Shown here: positions 1,274 to 33,322 of the stretch, piece after piece
How the letters are laid out: the number at the start of each line of letters is the position of its first letter
How positions within the stretch are numbered: position 1 is the first letter of the stretch
Origin: a phage
DNA length: 44,111 nt
Reading direction: 5' to 3' (one strand)
Sequence record: PZ379076.1
Program-made: the position numbers and the translations under genes
The notes under the pieces: generated by a model
Seen by the model: the letters and a program-made list of their open reading frames with translations, nothing else
Told to the model about the DNA's origin: nothing
Database searches by the model: none

Positions 1274-1563
1274 TGCCTAAAATCACAATCGCGTCACTTG
1301 AGCGTCGTATTCTGGTCCTTGAGTCAGAGAAACAGACGTTAGGCGGGCAACTGTCAATTAACGGTGAGTTTCAACTGGAGGCGTTTAAGGAGTTACTGGC
1401 TATTAAGACGCAAGAACCGAACGTGTACGCGGGGTTGTTCGTCGGTGAAGACAGTTCTTCGCTGGCTTATTACAACACGGCAACCGCAGCTTCAAAGGAT
1501 GGGGCTGATGTGATAATCCCGCTGTACGACAATGTTGTCGGACCAGAAGATGAAAGCGCCTGA
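1273..1563 (+). CDS. hypothetical protein
   Basis: 96-aa ORF in track; TAATG overlap with upstream gene. Confidence 0.6.
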   Translation: MPKITIASLERRILVLESEKQTLGGQLSINGEFQLEAFKELLAIKTQEPNVYAGLFVGEDSSSLAYYNTATAASKDGADVIIPLYDNVVGPEDESA

Positions 1564-27575: not shown

Positions 27576-28087
27576 CTGGTAAATTTCCTCGCAAGATACG
27601 TTATTTCTTCTTCACAAAGTTCATCAAGGTCGTTAGATACAAATCCTCTGGTGAATGTTTTGCTGAACTTTAATCCAGCTTTATCATTGTCGCCAGCGCA
27701 CACCCAGTCATACGGCAAAAGTGACATTTGCTGCCGTAGGTCTGTTGATATATTTGACCCCAGTGCGCTTACAGCATTGAACCCGCAATTCATCAAGGCT
27801 ACGGCTTTGAATATGCTTTCGGTAACAAATACCACCCCGCTTTCCGGCAAATACTCAAGCCCCCATAAACACGGCCTTGTTGTTCTGGTAAAGTACCGCG
27901 CGTCTTTAGGGTTTTTACAGTTCTTTTCGGCATGTGGTTTGTAATGCTGGTATCCGCGAAGCCTACCGTCAAACCCCCACAGGTAAAACGTAGCTACTCC
28001 AGGGGCTAAGACTACCTGGAGACGGTCAGCGTCAAACCCACGCGCCAGCAGATGAGCTTTAAGTAGAAACTCTTCGAAATCCATCAT
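27572..28087 (-). CDS. Toprim-domain protein (primase-like)
   Basis: 171 aa; ...VFVTESIFKAVALMNCGF...WVCAGDNDKAG gives the conserved Glu and DxD of the Toprim fold. Confidence 0.55.
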   Translation of the reverse strand: MMDFEEFLLKAHLLARGFDADRLQVVLAPGVATFYLWGFDGRLRGYQHYKPHAEKNCKNPKDARYFTRTTRPCLWGLEYLPESGVVFVTESIFKAVALMNCGFNAVSALGSNISTDLRQQMSLLPYDWVCAGDNDKAGLKFSKTFTRGFVSNDLDELCEEEITYLARKFTR

Positions 28088-29430
28088 TTCTTACCTCGTC
28101 TCTTCATGTAATTAAGCAACTCTTCCTGTACCGATTTCTTCTCGTCGGTACGCGCGGCGACAACCTCGTCCAGAGTGTCTTTAGCAACGATGTGATAAAG
28201 GAACACCGGGCGCTCGTGTCCTGCTTGCTTCTGGCGTACCGGGCCTATACGCTCGACAACCTGCAAATAGTGCTCAAGGTTCCAGCCTTGCGAGATGAAC
28301 GCCAGATGATGTCCGCCGTCCTGTAAATTCAAACCATGACCGGCTGACGCAGGATGTACGCATAGGATTTCGATTTCACCGCGGTTCCACGCTTCCATCT
28401 GCTTATTACCCTTAGCGCCTTTTGCAAACGCCTGGGCCTGCGGGAATCGCTTAAGGATGCGCTCCAGTTCGTGCTTAAACTGATAGGCCACCAGTAGCGG
28501 CGCTCCCTGTAACTCCTCCACAATGGACTCGAGCGCATCCAGTTTCGTGTCGTGCACTTTCTCCCAGTCTTTGGTCGCTTCGCCATCCGGCCCTGACACA
28601 TACACGGCACCAGATGCAATCTGCAAGCACTTTGAGGTCTTCGCCGCAGCGTTAGCCGCTTCAACTTCCCCGCTCTCCAGTTCTGCGAATAACTTCTCCT
28701 CCATATCTATGTACGCCTGACGCGCTTTCTTCGGCAGGTCTATTTCCACCGGTACGATAACAGGCGCTTCACAACCAAACCACTCGGCAGGGTCTATGGT
28801 CAGGCTGATGTCTTTCATCTTCTGATGAATCTCATTATCCGCACCCGGTCGTGCATGATACTCGCGGGCCATAGCCGATTTACCTTTCTGTACCGAGTTA
28901 AACCAGCGGTCGGTGAATGCTGTGTACGAAGAGCCGAGGCGCTCGCCAGCGTCGATAAACCAGTTCTGACCCCACAAGTCTTTGAGGCCGTTTGGTGACG
29001 GTGTGCCTGTCAGGTTGATGAAACGCTTAACCTTTCCGAACGCAACCTTGCTGAGCGCCTTTGCCCGCTTGCTACCACCCGAACGGCTGCGGAACGATTT
29101 AAGCTTCGTGCTTTCATCGGCAACGATAACCGTAAAAGGCCAGTCGTCTTTGCCGTAGTAGTCAATTAGCCACTCGATAACTTCGTAGTTAGTGCACACC
29201 ACGTTAGCATCTGACTCCAGCGCTGCGATGCGGCGCTTCTCCGAACCAGTTGCATCTACGACACGCAGACAAGGGAATTGCCATTTCTCTTGTTCAGCGG
29301 GCCACGTACCGGACGCAACACGTAACGGGGCAAGGATTAACACGCGGTCCTCTTCCGTAAGCTGCCCGTTGCGGAACAGGCGGTTGAGCACCCACATAGT
29401 GGAGGAGGTTTTACCTCCCCCATTCCGCAC
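28084..29430 (-). CDS. SNF2/SF2-family helicase, as called in this frame (N-terminus displaced by a frameshift)
   Basis: 448 aa; GGGKTS (motif I), VIVADESTKLK (DExx), LTGTPSPN (motif III), late HPASAGHGLNLQ; track ORF starts on GTG just downstream of a C5/G5 run. Confidence 0.8.
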   Translation of the reverse strand: MRNGGGKTSSTMWVLNRLFRNGQLTEEDRVLILAPLRVASGTWPAEQEKWQFPCLRVVDATGSEKRRIAALESDANVVCTNYEVIEWLIDYYGKDDWPFTVIVADESTKLKSFRSRSGGSKRAKALSKVAFGKVKRFINLTGTPSPNGLKDLWGQNWFIDAGERLGSSYTAFTDRWFNSVQKGKSAMAREYHARPGADNEIHQKMKDISLTIDPAEWFGCEAPVIVPVEIDLPKKARQAYIDMEEKLFAELESGEVEAANAAAKTSKCLQIASGAVYVSGPDGEATKDWEKVHDTKLDALESIVEELQGAPLLVAYQFKHELERILKRFPQAQAFAKGAKGNKQMEAWNRGEIEILCVHPASAGHGLNLQDGGHHLAFISQGWNLEHYLQVVERIGPVRQKQAGHERPVFLYHIVAKDTLDEVVAARTDEKKSVQEELLNYMKRRGKK

Positions 29431-29507
29431 CAGATATTACAGCGCGGGTGTTGCAGCATGAACGAAGTCATGAGCTTCTGGTACTCTCGACGGATAAATT
29501 TAGACAT
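29337..29507 (-). pseudogene. N-terminal fragment of the same helicase in the other frame
   Basis: ATG 29507, translation MSKFIRREYQKLMTSFMLQHPRCNIWCGMG... carries the Q-motif (REYQ) and the start of the P-loop; frames swap at the run 29417-29421. Confidence 0.55.
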
Positions 29508-29509
29508 GT

Positions 29510-29704
29510 TCAATCCTTAACGTAGAGTACCAGCTCTTTACGCCCGAACGCGGTAACGTTGCCTGTTACATCTTCGATAACCAGTTTACCGTTTGACTCG
29601 ACGAACACAGTATCAACGGCAACAGGCTGGCGGGTCTTAACGTTGAAAATCATGTCGCCAGGTACGATGTCACGTGCTGGTTTGCGGTCGTATTCGTGTT
29701 TCAT
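29510..29704 (-). CDS. hypothetical protein
   Basis: 64-aa ORF in track, first gene behind the promoter at 29738-29766. Confidence 0.55.
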   Translation of the reverse strand: MKHEYDRKPARDIVPGDMIFNVKTRQPVAVDTVFVESNGKLVIEDVTGNVTAFGRKELVLYVKD

Positions 29705-29734: not shown

Positions 29735-30019
29735 CTAACTATAATAGTTCGCTATTAGGGTGTCAACCTGTTTGAACGAACCAACTACAAAAACATTTGC
29801 ACCACGCTTACGCATCCGCTCGTGCTCTCGTAACTGGTGCGGGTCAGGCTTCGTGCTTTCGTCTTTCTTCACCTCGACGAACCAGACGATGCCGCCAGGG
29901 AGAATTACCAGCAGGTCGGGAGCGCCGGAACGCCCCTCGTAGGAAAGTTTACGAACGAGGCCCCCAAGGGCCTCAAATCGCTCTTTTGCGTATTTCTGGA
30001 TGCGGCCCTCTTTAGTCAT
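29735..30019 (-). CDS. VRR-NUC-like PD-(D/E)xK nuclease
   Basis: ATG 30019 inside track ORF 29735-30199; ...GAPDLLVILPGGIVWFVEVKKDES...QLREHERM fits the D...E-V-K nuclease core. Confidence 0.55.
   Translation of the reverse strand: MTKEGRIQKYAKERFEALGGLVRKLSYEGRSGAPDLLVILPGGIVWFVEVKKDESTKPDPHQLREHERMRKRGANVFVVGSFKQVDTLIANYYS
29738..29766 (-). promoter_or_regulatory. strong sigma70-type promoter, TTGACA-N17-TATAGT family
   Basis: Minus strand TTGACA (29766-29761), 17-nt spacer with AATAG-N4-CTATT, TATAGT (29743-29738). Confidence 0.65.
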
Positions 30020-30168
30020 GACCGCAGCATCCAGGTAAGGAAAGCCCCGCCTAGAAGGGCAACACCGGCAAACTGAAAGAACAGGCCGTAACAGAACATA
30101 GCAGCTATTCCCGCACCGAGTAACAGTGCGAGCATGGTTACTATCGACCCGAATACAAACATTCTCAT
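30016..30168 (-). CDS. hypothetical 50-aa membrane peptide
   Basis: ATG 30168, translation MRMFVFGSIVTMLALLLGAGIAAMFCYGLFF...; GAGGGG SD; stop overlaps next start (ATGA). Confidence 0.35.
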   Translation of the reverse strand: MRMFVFGSIVTMLALLLGAGIAAMFCYGLFFQFAGVALLGGAFLTWMLRS

Positions 30169-30254
30169 AACACGCACCCCTCACGTTTGGTATGCTCAAT
30201 ACCGCAGCGCGGGCAGATTCGACAGTCTTCTTCGTAGAACCGGTAAATTTTCAT
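30165..30254 (-). CDS. hypothetical 29-aa Cys-rich peptide
   Basis: ATG 30254, translation MKIYRFYEEDCRICPRCGIEHTKREGCVL; ATGA-coupled on both sides. Confidence 0.3.
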   Translation of the reverse strand: MKIYRFYEEDCRICPRCGIEHTKREGCVL

Positions 30255-30382
30255 TCCAGCACCCACAGATAAATTGCGATGAACATACCCAATATGGCAA
30301 CCATCATGCCGTATTGACCCTCGTGACAGTAGACACCTGCGGCAAATCCCGCCAGTACCGCGATAATCAGTTTACTTAACAT
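30251..30382 (-). CDS. hypothetical 43-aa membrane peptide
   Basis: ATG 30382 with AGGAG SD, overlapping the last codons of the polymerase gene; translation MLSKLIIAVLAGFAAGVYCHEGQYGMMVAILGMFIAIYLWVLE. Confidence 0.35.
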   Translation of the reverse strand: MLSKLIIAVLAGFAAGVYCHEGQYGMMVAILGMFIAIYLWVLE

Positions 30383-32552
30383 AGCGTTTTAACTCCTGAC
30401 CTTCCGCTACAAGAGGGAACCCCTCCGCCCATTCTGGTAATTCGCACATCAATCGCTCAAGCTCTGCGACATTGTATTCCGGCGTATCTGGAGTTTCGCA
30501 GATAATCTCATCGTGGACATGAAGTACAATTGGATAACCGTTTGCTTCTACGTTCAGCAGCGCGTTGGCCAGCAAATCACGGCACAACGCCTGAGTGCAG
30601 TTTTCCACCAGTTTACCAGAGTAGGTGTACTGGAAGCCCCACTGCCGGGTTAACTGGTTTTCGCCCTGGTACTTGATGCGCACGTTAGTAGACACCTTTC
30701 CATCTTCGTCTGTCTCTTTCGACACACTTAATCCGACGCCCGGGTATGACATAACGCGACCCGACGGCAACGTCATGCGCAACCACCAGCCCGCGACTTT
30801 GTCGCCGTTGTTGTCTGTCTCTATGTTACGCGAAAACTTAACGCCTCGCGGTCCTGCGGTGAACTCTTTACCTGGATTGCGGATAGCGGCCATAGCTGCG
30901 TCTTCAATATCTCGCCAGAAAGCTACTGTTTCAGGGTGTGACTCTCGCCACATACGCTTGATAGCGTCACAGGTACGCCACACTTTCTTATCAAGAATAT
31001 ACGATGGTCGGTCATCCTTCTCCCCGGGTCGCGGCGGTCGCTTGGCTTCCTGAATACGTGCCCATTCATAGCCGCGTGCAGTAGCCGCCCAGATGTGGTC
31101 CGGGAAAGTACCGTCCATTGTTTTTGACATATCAACAAGGTCAAGTCCGAGGTTCTTAGCAAACTGAACGAAAGCGCCAACACCACCAGCGTAGCCGAGG
31201 CCAAGCTCGCAGGCTTTACCAATCTGGCGCAAGTCTTTGCGTTCCTTCTTAATGTAATCCGGCTCCATGCCGAACATCTTACCCGCGGTTACACAGTAAA
31301 TGTCCAGCCCGGCGCGGAACGTATCTAGCGCGGTTTCTTCGCCTGCCAGCCACGCAAGCCCCCGACCTTCAACGTTAGAGTAATCGGCAACGACAAACTT
31401 ATGCCCTGCTTCCGGTATGATGCAGCTACGAACGGTCGATGCCGTTAGCTTGGCCACATCGAAACGGCGATGGGCGCGACCCTTAAGTAACGCCGAAATG
31501 CCTTTATCCAGCTCATCATCGTGATAGTAACCGCGTGCCAGGTTCTGCGGCTGGAAGCCTTTACCGGCCCATCGCAGAGTACGCTTTGCCCCACCGTACT
31601 GGATACAACCGCGGCGTCGGTCGTCCGACGAGCGGCCTAACAGCAGCGGGTTATATTTCGTGGACGCTGTTGACGCGGCCCCGAGGCGCATTTCGATAAT
31701 CATCCGGGCGTCGTCCGGTAAATCATCATCTGCCAACAGGTCGTTAAGCGTCGACTTCTGTGCATTGTGTATGTGGTGCGCGGGCGCAAGTTCACGCAGA
31801 ATCGGAAGGAAGTCTTTACCGGTAAGCGAGCCGCCGTATTTACGTTGAGCTTCTTCCTGTAACTGTGCCTTGTGCTTCTCTACGGCTTCAATCGCGGCTT
31901 CCGCCAGTGCGACGTCAACCTTAAATCCGCGGTCGTTGATTAACTGGTCAAGTTCCAGTACACGGTCTTCGAACTCGGAGTTACCCCAACGCGGCAGCTT
32001 ATGGAAGACTTCACGCATCGCAGTGATGTCGCTCACGGCGTACCTGATGAACATCGCCCACTCGTCAGGGTGAGTTTCTGCGGTGTAGCGGCGGATTTTG
32101 TAGTTCTTCGGCGTCGGTTTAGAGAAACGCTTAATCAGAGCCTTGCCGCGTTTATCTTTCGCGTTGTCTGCAGACACGCCCAGCACTTCGCACAGCGCAT
32201 CAAGAGAACCCGGCAGCGCGTGACGGAACGCCCAAATCATAGTATCAATGGTGTTACTTACCGGAATATCAAAGTCCCAGCAGTGTTTCATGATTAGGCG
32301 ATCGAAAAGTCCACCGTTGTGCCACACCATCTTGATGCGGCTGTTGGGCTTAACAAGGCGGCGCAGTGCGCGGTGTAAATCCCCCGGCATGTCGCTGCCG
32401 TCGGTGCAATCCCATACCCGCACAGGTTCGTCGTCAAAAGCATATGTACAGATAAGCACTTCGGTTGACGGGTGTTCGGCGTAAGCGTAAGAACCGACTT
32501 TCTTCAAATCGGCTTCTGAGAATGTTTCAAAGTCTAAGAACAGGTAACTCAT
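30372..32552 (-). CDS. DNA polymerase, family A, with 3'-5' exonuclease domain
   Basis: 726 aa; Exo I FLDFETFS; polymerase motif A DYSNVEGR, motif B-like K...LGLGYAGG, motif C VHDE. Confidence 0.9.
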   Translation of the reverse strand: MSYLFLDFETFSEADLKKVGSYAYAEHPSTEVLICTYAFDDEPVRVWDCTDGSDMPGDLHRALRRLVKPNSRIKMVWHNGGLFDRLIMKHCWDFDIPVSNTIDTMIWAFRHALPGSLDALCEVLGVSADNAKDKRGKALIKRFSKPTPKNYKIRRYTAETHPDEWAMFIRYAVSDITAMREVFHKLPRWGNSEFEDRVLELDQLINDRGFKVDVALAEAAIEAVEKHKAQLQEEAQRKYGGSLTGKDFLPILRELAPAHHIHNAQKSTLNDLLADDDLPDDARMIIEMRLGAASTASTKYNPLLLGRSSDDRRRGCIQYGGAKRTLRWAGKGFQPQNLARGYYHDDELDKGISALLKGRAHRRFDVAKLTASTVRSCIIPEAGHKFVVADYSNVEGRGLAWLAGEETALDTFRAGLDIYCVTAGKMFGMEPDYIKKERKDLRQIGKACELGLGYAGGVGAFVQFAKNLGLDLVDMSKTMDGTFPDHIWAATARGYEWARIQEAKRPPRPGEKDDRPSYILDKKVWRTCDAIKRMWRESHPETVAFWRDIEDAAMAAIRNPGKEFTAGPRGVKFSRNIETDNNGDKVAGWWLRMTLPSGRVMSYPGVGLSVSKETDEDGKVSTNVRIKYQGENQLTRQWGFQYTYSGKLVENCTQALCRDLLANALLNVEANGYPIVLHVHDEIICETPDTPEYNVAELERLMCELPEWAEGFPLVAEGQELKRYVK

Positions 32553-33293: not shown

Positions 33294-33322
33294 ACTATAA
33301 TAGCTAACTATTCAGGTGTCAA
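33294..33322 (-). promoter_or_regulatory. strong sigma70-type promoter, TTGACA-N17-TATAGT family
   Basis: Minus strand TTGACA (33322-33317), 17-nt spacer with AATAG-N4-CTATT, TATAGT (33299-33294). Confidence 0.65.

What the first reader, a model, noticed from the sequence alone, without database searches (positions are those of the whole stretch)
30016..30382. Three translationally coupled micro-ORFs (membrane, Cys-rich, membrane) between polymerase and nuclease genes
ATGA overlaps chain a 43-aa hydrophobic peptide, a 29-aa CxxCxxC peptide and a 50-aa hydrophobic peptide (30382 down to 30016), continuing into the VRR-NUC gene; all are below the ORF-track cut-off. Two have SD sequences (AGGAG, GAGGGG). 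Tiny membrane peptides inside a replication operon are unusual.
Basis: seen in the sequence. Interest (0 to 1): 0.4.

Follow-up and report, generated by a model that had tools for sequence, protein, structure and literature searches.

The report
Three small coupled phage genes
Between the DNA polymerase and nuclease genes of this Kagunavirus-like phage lie three real, conserved, back-to-back mini-genes (two membrane peptides flanking a tiny cysteine-rich peptide); databases already list them as hypothetical proteins and their function is unknown.

Summary
On the minus strand, a 43-aa (30382..30251), a 29-aa (30254..30165) and a 50-aa ORF (30168..30016) link the DNA polymerase gene to the VRR-NUC gene through an 11-nt overlap and three ATGA overlaps. 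In about 50 related phage contigs all three frames stay open and show dN/dS of 0.21, 0.13 and 0.18, like the flanking polymerase end (0.10) and VRR-NUC (0.15). Off-frames and the antisense ORF are broken by stops.

They are not new. The nearest relative, Escherichia phage Bas70, annotates all three as hypothetical proteins, and each has a PHROG family of unknown function.

The polymerase/VRR-NUC junction is a modular hot spot, with at least 10 gene arrangements in 53 loci. The Cys-rich peptide is always kept (445 GenBank phages). The two membrane peptides are optional (224 and 121 phages). Other tiny membrane peptides, a 64-aa protein or HNH endonucleases can replace them or sit beside them.

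No homologues exist outside Guernseyvirinae, and no Pfam, NCBIfam or PADLOC family matches. My best guess, inferred only: the optional membrane hairpins act at the inner membrane (exclusion or host modulation), and the core zinc-knuckle-like peptide serves the replication/repair module. Interest is low to moderate.

The parts
30372..32552 (-). DNA polymerase I-type gene (726 aa). Its last 11 nt overlap the start of o1.
   Evidence: ORF list. Annotated as DNA polymerase in Bas70 and other relatives.
30393..30397 (-). Shine-Dalgarno-like AGGAG, 10 nt upstream of the o1 ATG and inside the polymerase coding sequence.
   Evidence: Sequence. Relatives carry AGGAG, GGAG or GAGG at the same place.
30251..30382 (-). 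o1: 43-aa hydrophobic peptide, predicted two-helix membrane hairpin with a YCHEGQYG loop. PHROG 10404. Optional within the subfamily.
   Evidence: PHROG E=1.3e-31; dN/dS 0.21 over 41 distinct sequences. AF2 gives helices 2-20 and 22-42, pLDDT 91, pTM 0.63. The best structural matches are membrane hairpins but are not significant. Found in 224 GenBank phage records.
30165..30254 (-). o2: 29-aa polar Cys-rich peptide (C11-x2-C14-x2-C17-x3-H21-x5-C27). PHROG 38225. Present in every Guernseyvirinae relative examined.
   Evidence: PHROG E=4.1e-20; dN/dS 0.13 over 45 distinct sequences. Found in 445 GenBank phage records. Invariant: C14, C27, EED, RIC, TKREG. C11 is R or F in 5 of 28 variants.
30177..30182 (-). 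Shine-Dalgarno-like GAGGGG, 8 nt upstream of the o3 ATG and inside o2 (codons for E-G).
   Evidence: Sequence; kept in relatives.
30016..30168 (-). o3: 50-aa hydrophobic, Gly/Ala-rich peptide with a near-invariant CYG in the middle. PHROG 14925. Optional within the subfamily.
   Evidence: PHROG E=3.6e-28; dN/dS 0.18 over 22 distinct sequences. Found in 121 GenBank records. 87 database relatives, nearly all 50 aa, the full-length ones 74% or more identical. AF2 gives one helix 2-49, pLDDT 89.
29735..30019 (-). VRR-NUC / Holliday-junction-resolvase-like nuclease gene (94 aa). Its start overlaps the o3 stop (ATGA), and it has no good SD of its own.
   Evidence: PHROG 93 endonuclease E=1.1e-33; Pfam VRR_NUC weak, below cut-off. 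Annotated as Holliday junction resolvase in Bas70.
33294..33322 (-). Sigma-70-like promoter match (TTGACA-17-TATAGT) upstream of the Gp2.5-like SSB gene. Probable start of the SSB-pol-o1-o2-o3-VRR-NUC transcription unit (inferred).
   Evidence: Consensus scan, 11/12 matches. The scan as a whole found no more sites than in shuffled sequence, so this is a lead only.
29738..29766 (-). Second sigma-70-like promoter match, inside the 3' end of VRR-NUC. It marks the next transcription unit.
   Evidence: A promoter is annotated at the same place in Salmonella phage AG11.

Best explanation
These are three genuine small protein genes of a Kagunavirus-like (Guernseyvirinae) siphophage.

Shown:
- The three frames are under purifying selection.
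- Their stop/start overlaps with each other, with the polymerase gene and with VRR-NUC are conserved.
- o1 and o3 are hydrophobic helical peptides. o2 is a polar Cys/His-rich peptide.
- o2 is core to the subfamily. o1 and o3 are optional cassettes at a recombination hot spot, where other tiny membrane peptides, a 64-aa soluble protein or HNH homing endonucleases can replace them or be added.

Inferred:
- They are transcribed with the SSB, polymerase and VRR-NUC genes during the replication phase.
- They are translated by termination-reinitiation coupling. This also feeds ribosomes to VRR-NUC, which has no good SD of its own.
- o1 inserts into the inner membrane as a two-helix hairpin, and o3 probably does too.

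Function (inferred, low confidence):
- o1 and o3 are dispensable, swappable and strictly lineage-restricted. I therefore think they are accessory envelope-acting factors, either superinfection exclusion or modulation of a host inner-membrane protein (about 0.3), rather than replisome parts.
- o2 is always present and always sits just upstream of the VRR-NUC end of the module. It is most likely a zinc-knuckle-like micro-protein serving the replication/repair module, by binding nucleic acid or a partner protein (about 0.3).
For: - Coding constraint: dN/dS is 0.21, 0.13 and 0.18, against 0.15 (VRR-NUC) and 0.10 (polymerase C-end). There are no in-frame stops. Diversity at third codon positions is 2.5-6 times that at second positions.
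- Coupling: the overlaps are conserved in 43/45, 45/45, 19/24 and 24/24 loci, and new cassettes also join by ATGA or GTGA.
- Annotation: Bas70_0041, 0040 and 0039 are annotated, and PHROGs 10404, 38225 and 14925 match.
- Distribution: o2 is in 445 GenBank phage records, o1 in 224 and o3 in 121, all in Guernseyvirinae-type phages.
- Modularity: 53 loci show at least 10 arrangements. Loci whose polymerase C-end is 93% or more identical to the window's carry 6-7 different arrangements.
- Structure: o1 is predicted as helix-turn-helix (pLDDT 91), and the nearest folds are membrane hairpins. o3 is all-helical. Hydropathy maxima are 2.5-2.6.
- The antisense 81-aa ORF is broken by stops in 26 of 50 relatives.
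- A canonical lysis cassette lies elsewhere in the genome.
- Known precedent for small inner-membrane phage proteins that block genome entry: T4 Imm binds the tape measure protein (bioRxiv 10.64898/2026.03.06.709160).
Against: - There is no experimental evidence of expression.
- There is no sequence or profile link to any characterised family, so all functional statements rest on context and analogy.
- AF2 models o3 as one 48-residue helix, not a hairpin.
- o2's Cys/His spacing fits neither a canonical zinc ribbon nor the retroviral CCHC knuckle, and C11, C17 and H21 each vary in a few natural sequences.
- The sequences used for dN/dS were picked by protein similarity, which biases dN downward. 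The codon-position pattern and the absence of stops do not depend on that choice.
- The promoter assignment rests on consensus matches that are no more frequent than in shuffled sequence.
Confidence: 0.6

Rival explanations
1. Replisome-to-membrane anchoring. o1 and o3 (with o2 as a DNA- or protein-binding partner) would tether replicating phage DNA or the polymerase/nuclease to the inner membrane, as phi29 p1 and p16.7 do.
For: The genes lie inside the SSB-pol-VRR-NUC operon and are coupled to those genes. phi29 has membrane proteins p1 and p16.7 that anchor its replication machinery (PMC4974454). In some distant relatives the same slot holds unrelated small membrane or Cys-rich+membrane ORFs: L061, L062, L065, L071, L075, L080.
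Against: o1 is missing from about half, and o3 from about three quarters, of the phage records that have o2. Many relatives have nothing, or something soluble, in the slot. o1 and o3 are almost entirely hydrophobic, with no soluble domain to hold DNA or protein. No homology to p1 or p16.7 was detected.
Confidence: 0.12
2. Relay ORFs. The micro-ORFs would matter only as translated spacers that pass ribosomes from the polymerase gene to VRR-NUC, and the peptides themselves would have no function.
For: VRR-NUC has no convincing SD. Every arrangement of the slot keeps an unbroken chain of overlapping stop/start codons.
Against: The amino-acid sequences are under purifying selection as strong as in the flanking enzymes (dN/dS 0.13-0.21). 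Lengths are fixed at 43, 29 and 50 aa in nearly all database members. Jerseyviruses achieve the coupling with o2 alone, so o1 and o3 are not needed for relay.
Confidence: 0.08
3. Lysis-timing proteins. o1 and/or o3 would be holin-, antiholin- or pinholin-like membrane peptides.
For: Both are small membrane peptides with Gly/Ala-rich helices. o3 has one very weak PHROG holin match (E=0.88).
Against: The match is not significant. Neither peptide has a charged C-terminal tail (they end in E and LRS). They lie in the replication operon, whereas the nearly identical Bas70 genome has two holins, an endolysin and spanins elsewhere. They are optional in the subfamily.
Confidence: 0.07
4. Chance ORFs or a non-coding spacer, or a gene on the other strand (the 81-aa plus-strand ORF at 30134..30379).
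For: All three are very short, and the gene caller behind most metagenome proteins usually misses o2 (only 11 database proteins).
Against: Frame conservation, dN/dS and the codon-position pattern argue against it. The antisense ORF is interrupted in 26 of 50 relatives. No Rfam family and no repeats were found.
Confidence: 0.03

Closest known systems
Bas70_0041, Bas70_0040 and Bas70_0039 of Escherichia phage MarieHeimVoegtlin_Bas70 (PQ850619), with PHROGs 10404, 38225 and 14925
   Same: The peptide sequences are 100% identical, with the same order, overlaps and neighbours. The PHROG profiles match end to end.
   Different: Nothing differs in this segment. Those entries are hypothetical proteins of unknown function, so they name the genes without explaining them.
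Jerseyvirus 36-aa protein (e.g. AG11_35A, YP_009608591, Salmonella phage AG11)
   Same: It is the same Cys-rich peptide (EEDCRICPRCGIEHTKREGC), in the same position, coupled to both the polymerase gene and VRR-NUC.
   Different: There it is the only gene in the slot. It starts with o1's first seven codons (MLSKLII) and has a longer C-end (IDEYA) that overlaps VRR-NUC by 11 nt. o1's body and o3 are absent.
T4 Imm and HK97 gp15 (small inner-membrane superinfection-exclusion proteins that bind the incoming tape measure protein)
   Same: These are small membrane helical proteins made by the infecting or resident phage, non-essential and lineage-specific (bioRxiv 10.64898/2026.03.06.709160). This is what o1 and o3 may work like.
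   Different: No sequence or profile similarity was found. o1 and o3 are half the size of Imm (43-50 aa against 83-94 aa). No exclusion phenotype is known. The comparison is an analogy only.
phi29 p1 and p16.7 (membrane proteins encoded with the replication genes)
   Same: These are small membrane proteins encoded with a phage DNA polymerase that place replication at the membrane (PMC4974454).
   Different: From my own knowledge, p16.7 has a soluble DNA- and TP-binding domain and p1 self-associates. o1 and o3 have essentially no soluble part, are optional, and show no homology to either.
Zinc ribbon / zinc knuckle mini-domains (CPxCG knuckle; retroviral CCHC CX2CX4HX4C)
   Same: o2 contains a CPRCG knuckle and four or five possible ligands within 17 residues. 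PDB hits were weak and non-significant, to RanBP2-type and ribosomal zinc ribbons (E about 1).
   Different: The spacing is CX2CX2CX3HX5C, which fits neither canonical pattern. No Pfam model matches. Zinc binding is untested.

Membership tests
PHROG 10404 / 38225 / 14925 (phage protein families of unknown function) | Significant full-length match to the family profile | tested here: met
   E=1.3e-31 (1-43 of 43), 4.1e-20 (profile positions 5-32 of 36) and 3.6e-28 (1-50 of 50).
Protein-coding gene (as opposed to a chance ORF) | Purifying selection on the frame and an open frame in relatives | tested here: met
   dN/dS is 0.21, 0.13 and 0.18. There are 0 stops in frame, against 21-136 stops in the off-frames.
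Translationally coupled operon genes | Conserved stop/start overlaps with neighbours | tested here: met
   The 11-nt and 4-nt overlaps are kept in 43/45, 45/45, 19/24 and 24/24 loci. Actual reinitiation cannot be tested here.
Holins (class II / pinholin-like) | Two or more membrane helices | tested here: inconclusive
   o1 is predicted as a hairpin. o3 is modelled as one long helix.
Holins (class II / pinholin-like) | Charged, hydrophilic C-terminal tail | tested here: not met
   o1 ends ...YLWVLE and o3 ends ...WMLRS.
Holins (class II / pinholin-like) | Gene lies in the lysis cassette next to the endolysin | tested here: not met
   The Bas70 lysis genes (two holins, an endolysin, spanins) are elsewhere in the genome.
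Holins (class II / pinholin-like) | Profile match to a holin family | tested here: not met
   The only hit is PHROG 26796 at E=0.88. Pfam gives none.
Zinc ribbon / CCHC zinc knuckle (o2) | Canonical ligand spacing (CX2C...CX2C, or CX2CX4HX4C) and a profile match | tested here: not met
   The spacing is CX2CX2CX3HX5C. There is no Pfam hit above noise, and the best PDB E-value is 0.83.
Zinc ribbon / CCHC zinc knuckle (o2) | Four invariant metal ligands | tested here: inconclusive
   C14 and C27 are invariant. C17 holds in 27/28 variants, H21 in 26/28 and C11 in 23/28.
Zinc ribbon / CCHC zinc knuckle (o2) | Binds zinc | not testable with these tools
   This needs metal analysis of the purified or synthetic peptide.
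Superinfection-exclusion membrane proteins (T4 Imm, HK97 gp15, P22 SieA) | Sequence or profile homology to a known Sie protein | tested here: not met
   No Pfam, PHROG-with-function, NCBIfam or PADLOC match.
Superinfection-exclusion membrane proteins (T4 Imm, HK97 gp15, P22 SieA) | Blocks genome entry of a superinfecting phage | not testable with these tools
   This needs plating and DNA-entry assays on cells expressing o1 or o3.
phi29 p1 / p16.7-type replication anchors | Membrane anchor plus a soluble domain that binds DNA or a replication protein | tested here: not met
   o1 and o3 are 43-50 aa and almost wholly hydrophobic, and no homology was found.

The most novel reading that the evidence does not exclude
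The core Cys-rich micro-protein o2 and the optional membrane hairpins o1 and o3 could form one membrane-tethered module. That module would either place the polymerase/VRR-NUC machinery at the inner membrane or block genome entry of competing Guernseyvirinae phages. This would make the pol/VRR-NUC junction a dedicated, rapidly exchanging slot for micro-proteins under 50 aa, with a new mechanism. Unrelated Cys-rich+membrane mini-ORFs in the same slot of distant relatives (L071, L075) would then be functional analogues.
Probability: 0.1. Interest if true: 0.55.

Novelty: already known. Interest (0 to 1): 0.22.

Why it matters
The finding shows that ORFs of 29-50 codons, below usual gene-calling limits, can be verified as real genes by comparative analysis alone. 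It also singles out a universally conserved 29-aa Cys-rich peptide, plus two swappable membrane peptides, as cheap experimental targets in Kagunavirus and Jerseyvirus phages, which are used for phage therapy, biocontrol and synthetic-biology chassis work. If o1 or o3 exclude related phages or act on a host membrane protein, that would bear on cocktail design. As it stands, this is an ordinary case of uncharacterised accessory phage genes that are already annotated.

Tried and rejected
- **Homologue searches outside the subfamily.** The searches for o3 and o1 returned 87 and 84 proteins. The full-length ones are 74% or more identical, and those on long contigs sit on contigs of phage-genome size, about 40-45 kb. 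An exhaustive HMMER search of 1.84 billion representatives with the 33-aa extended o2 found only o2 itself and two spurious repeat proteins.
- **Word-index search for o2.** A concatenated o2 query then returned only 11 proteins, because most gene callers skip a 29-aa ORF. This search was unproductive.
- **Family libraries.** Pfam, NCBIfam and PADLOC gave nothing above noise. PDB sequence search with o2 gave nothing significant. Rfam and repeat scans of the region gave nothing.
- **o1 and o3 as paralogues.** Profile-profile comparison rejects this (probability 0.5%).
- **Fold search with the o1 model.** It returned only generic membrane hairpins, with E above 4.
- **Natural fusions as functional clues.** The o1N-o2 and o2-o3 fusion proteins are rare singletons. 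They are explained by one-base frameshifts, and the o2-o3 ones lose the invariant C27, so I treat them as probable sequencing errors.
- **Literature.** Searches found no study of these genes.
- **Antisense 81-aa ORF.** Rejected, because it is broken by stops in relatives.

Full report
**Context**

The window is a nearly complete genome of a Kagunavirus-like siphophage (subfamily Guernseyvirinae). The 1-kb stretch around the finding is 98.8% identical to Escherichia phage MarieHeimVoegtlin_Bas70. It matches 644 GenBank phage records, mostly Salmonella and Escherichia phages.

**Observation**

- The polymerase gene ends at 30372.
- o1 (43 aa) starts at 30382, 11 nt before the polymerase stop.
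- o2 (29 aa, 30254..30165), o3 (50 aa, 30168..30016) and VRR-NUC (30019..29735) follow, each joined to the previous gene by an ATGA overlap.
- AGGAG (30397..30393) precedes o1 and GAGGGG (30182..30177) precedes o3.
- o1 and o3 are strongly hydrophobic (GRAVY 1.47 and 1.59; 15-residue hydropathy maxima 2.6 and 2.5). o2 is polar with four Cys and one His.

**Are they genes?**

I fetched 79 loci from IMG/VR through the VRR-NUC protein and three GenBank loci. Fifty-two of these loci, 53 with the window itself, carry a VRR-NUC at least 82% identical to the window's, and all 53 contain o2.

Nei-Gojobori estimates over all pairs of distinct sequences:

| Segment | Distinct sequences | dN/dS |
|---|---|---|
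| o1 | 41 | 0.21 |
| o2 | 45 | 0.13 |
| o3 | 22 | 0.18 |
| VRR-NUC | 49 | 0.15 |
| Polymerase C-end | 48 | 0.10 |

- The two off-frames of the three micro-ORF segments give 0.9-2.2 and contain 21-136 stops; the claimed frames contain none.
- Nucleotide diversity at third codon positions is 2.5-6 times that at second positions.
- The sequences were picked by protein similarity, which biases dN downward. The codon-position pattern and the absence of stops do not depend on that choice.
- The 81-aa plus-strand ORF opposite o1/o2 is interrupted by stops in 26 of 50 relatives.
- No Rfam family or repeat occupies the region.

**Coupling**

The overlaps are kept as follows:
- The pol/o1 11-nt overlap holds in 43 of 45 loci. 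The two exceptions have an HNH endonuclease gene inserted.
- The o1/o2 4-nt overlap holds in 45/45.
- The o2/o3 overlap holds in 19/24. The other five have an extra 64-aa gene, itself joined by overlaps.
- The o3/VRR-NUC overlap holds in 24/24.

VRR-NUC has no good SD, so its translation probably depends on this chain (inferred). Sigma-70-like promoter matches (11 of 12 positions) lie upstream of the SSB gene (33322..33294) and inside the VRR-NUC 3' end (29766..29738). The second coincides with a promoter annotated in phage AG11. This suggests one SSB-pol-o1-o2-o3-VRR-NUC unit, but the scan found no more sites than in shuffled sequence, so it is only a lead.

**Already known**

Bas70 annotates all three as hypothetical proteins, Bas70_0041, 0040 and 0039. 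Each matches a PHROG of unknown function end to end: 10404, 38225 and 14925.

**Distribution and modularity**

- tblastn against 50,697 GenBank phages finds o2 in 445 records, o1 in 224 and o3 in 121, all in Guernseyvirinae-type phages.
- In the 53 loci the pol/VRR-NUC slot shows at least 10 arrangements:

| Arrangement | Loci |
|---|---|
| o1-o2-o3 | 16 |
| o1-o2 | 13 |
| o2 alone | 6 |
| o1-o2-64aa-o3 | 5 |
| o1-o2-64aa | 3 |
| o1-o2 plus an unrelated 23-25-aa membrane peptide (26-28 codons from the upstream GTG) | 3 |
| o2-o3 | 2 |
| Forms with HNH endonuclease genes or their remnants | 5 |

- The o2-alone form occurs in Jerseyvirus, where o2 carries o1's first seven codons.
- Loci whose polymerase C-end is at least 93% identical to the window's carry six or seven different arrangements. 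Identical arrangements also occur with polymerase alleles only 70% identical. The slot is therefore a recombination hot spot.
- Synonymous diversity of o1 (0.21) and o3 (0.27) is lower than in the flanks (0.40-0.62), which fits recent exchange of these cassettes.
- In more distant phages with the same pol...VRR-NUC synteny, the slot is empty (eiAU, L054, L056, L072), holds other genes (HK578, phiEap-2), or holds unrelated small membrane or Cys-rich+membrane ORFs (L061, L062, L065, L071, L075, L080). None of those matches a PHROG.

**Properties of the peptides**

- **o1.** AF2 predicts helix 2-20, a break, then helix 22-42 (pLDDT 91, pTM 0.63). The nearest PDB folds are membrane hairpins (Gdx TM-score 0.77), not statistically significant. 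The YCHEGQYG loop is nearly invariant.
- **o3.** AF2 gives a single helix 2-49 (pLDDT 89). Forty-eight hydrophobic residues are about twice a bilayer's thickness. The near-invariant CYG at 26-28 and the Gly/Ala-rich faces make a hairpin or an oligomer plausible, but this remains unresolved.
- **o1 versus o3.** They are not detectably related to each other.
- **o2.** C14, C27, EED, RIC and TKREG are invariant. C11 is R or F in 5 of 28 variants, H21 varies in 2 and C17 in 1. The ligand set is therefore uncertain, possibly C14/C17/H21/C27, and the spacing fits no canonical zinc finger.

**Searches for relatives or function**

- The searches for o3 and o1 returned only proteins that are 74% or more identical over their full length, from contigs of phage-genome size.
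- An exhaustive search with o2 found nothing real beyond itself.
- Pfam, NCBIfam, PADLOC and PDB gave nothing.
- The literature holds no study of these genes.
- Rare fusion proteins in public assemblies are best explained by one-base errors.

**Interpretation**

Existence, coding constraint, coupling architecture, hydrophobic and Cys-rich character, core versus optional status, and the hot-spot behaviour are all shown.

The functions are inferred. o1 and o3 are dispensable, swappable with other membrane peptides, and strictly lineage-restricted. Among the annotated small genes (under about 100 aa) of Bas70 outside its canonical lysis cassette, they are the only strongly hydrophobic ones apart from one weaker, dubious 30-aa ORF. 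I therefore favour an accessory envelope role.
- The model is T4 Imm or HK97 gp15, small inner-membrane proteins that bind the incoming tape measure protein, or alternatively modulation of a host membrane protein.
- A phi29 p1/p16.7-like replication anchor is less likely, because the peptides are optional and lack a soluble domain.
- A lysis role is unlikely.
- o2 is universal and always on the VRR-NUC side of o1. It is more likely a cofactor of the replication/repair module. The relay-ORF idea cannot explain the selection on its amino acids.

**Verdict**

The observation and its interpretation hold, but the genes are already annotated and catalogued. Nothing about them departs from the familiar pattern of small uncharacterised accessory genes at a phage recombination hot spot. 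Interest is low to moderate.

Noticed in passing
window 29417..29421 (minus strand), within 28084..29513: The SNF2-type DNA helicase gene is split into a 58-aa ORF and a 448-aa ORF by an apparent one-base loss in a G5 run inside the Walker-A motif (GMGGGKT). Adding one G restores a single ORF of about 474 aa, like Bas70_0035. This is a likely sequencing error, or otherwise a real frameshift.
   Followed up: yes
window about 29507..29513, compared with L001 2685..3470: The window lacks the 786-nt DNA methyltransferase gene that Bas70 carries between the 63/64-aa ORF and the helicase gene. This is another cassette-type difference between two otherwise near-identical phages.
   Followed up: partly
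L003, L042-L045, L051 (Jerseyvirus loci), about 1398..1508: The Jerseyvirus o2 (36 aa) begins with o1's first seven codons (MLSKLII). The body of o1 therefore behaves as a precise insertion or deletion that keeps the start site overlapping the polymerase stop.
   Followed up: partly
L011 441..1148; L039/L041 999..1505; L040 765..1280; L049 1361..1505: HNH-type homing endonuclease genes occupy the same pol/VRR-NUC slot in several relatives. Phage Jersey (L049) retains only decayed fragments of one.
   Followed up: partly
P0075, P0076 (79 aa); P0162, P0166-P0168, P0171, P0177 (72-73 aa): Public assemblies contain o2-o3 fusions, made by loss of one G in the GGGG run equivalent to window 30177..30180, and o1(N-half)-o2 fusions. 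They are rare singletons, and the o2-o3 ones lose the invariant C27, so they are probably homopolymer sequencing errors.
   Followed up: partly
L071 1003..1263; L075 1296..1505; L080 686..1023; L061 1214..1480; L065 1265..1504: Distant relatives (VRR-NUC 43-46% identical) have unrelated small ORFs with a Cys-rich N-end plus a C-terminal membrane helix, or plain membrane peptides, in the same slot. None matches a PHROG. These are possible positional analogues or just coincidence.
   Followed up: partly
window 30016..30382 versus flanks: Synonymous diversity of o1 (pS 0.21) and o3 (0.27) is well below that of the adjacent polymerase C-end (0.62) and VRR-NUC (0.40). This suggests the cassettes have spread recently by recombination among lineages.
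   Followed up: no
L007, L008, L014, L015, L028, L035, L046, L050 (e.g. L014 1310..1504): A conserved 64-aa soluble protein (MSNKPFSKKLAALVDMPEWEF...CAGCTHKG..., PHROG 25645, function unknown) is an alternative or additional cassette between o2 and o3 or VRR-NUC.
   Followed up: partly
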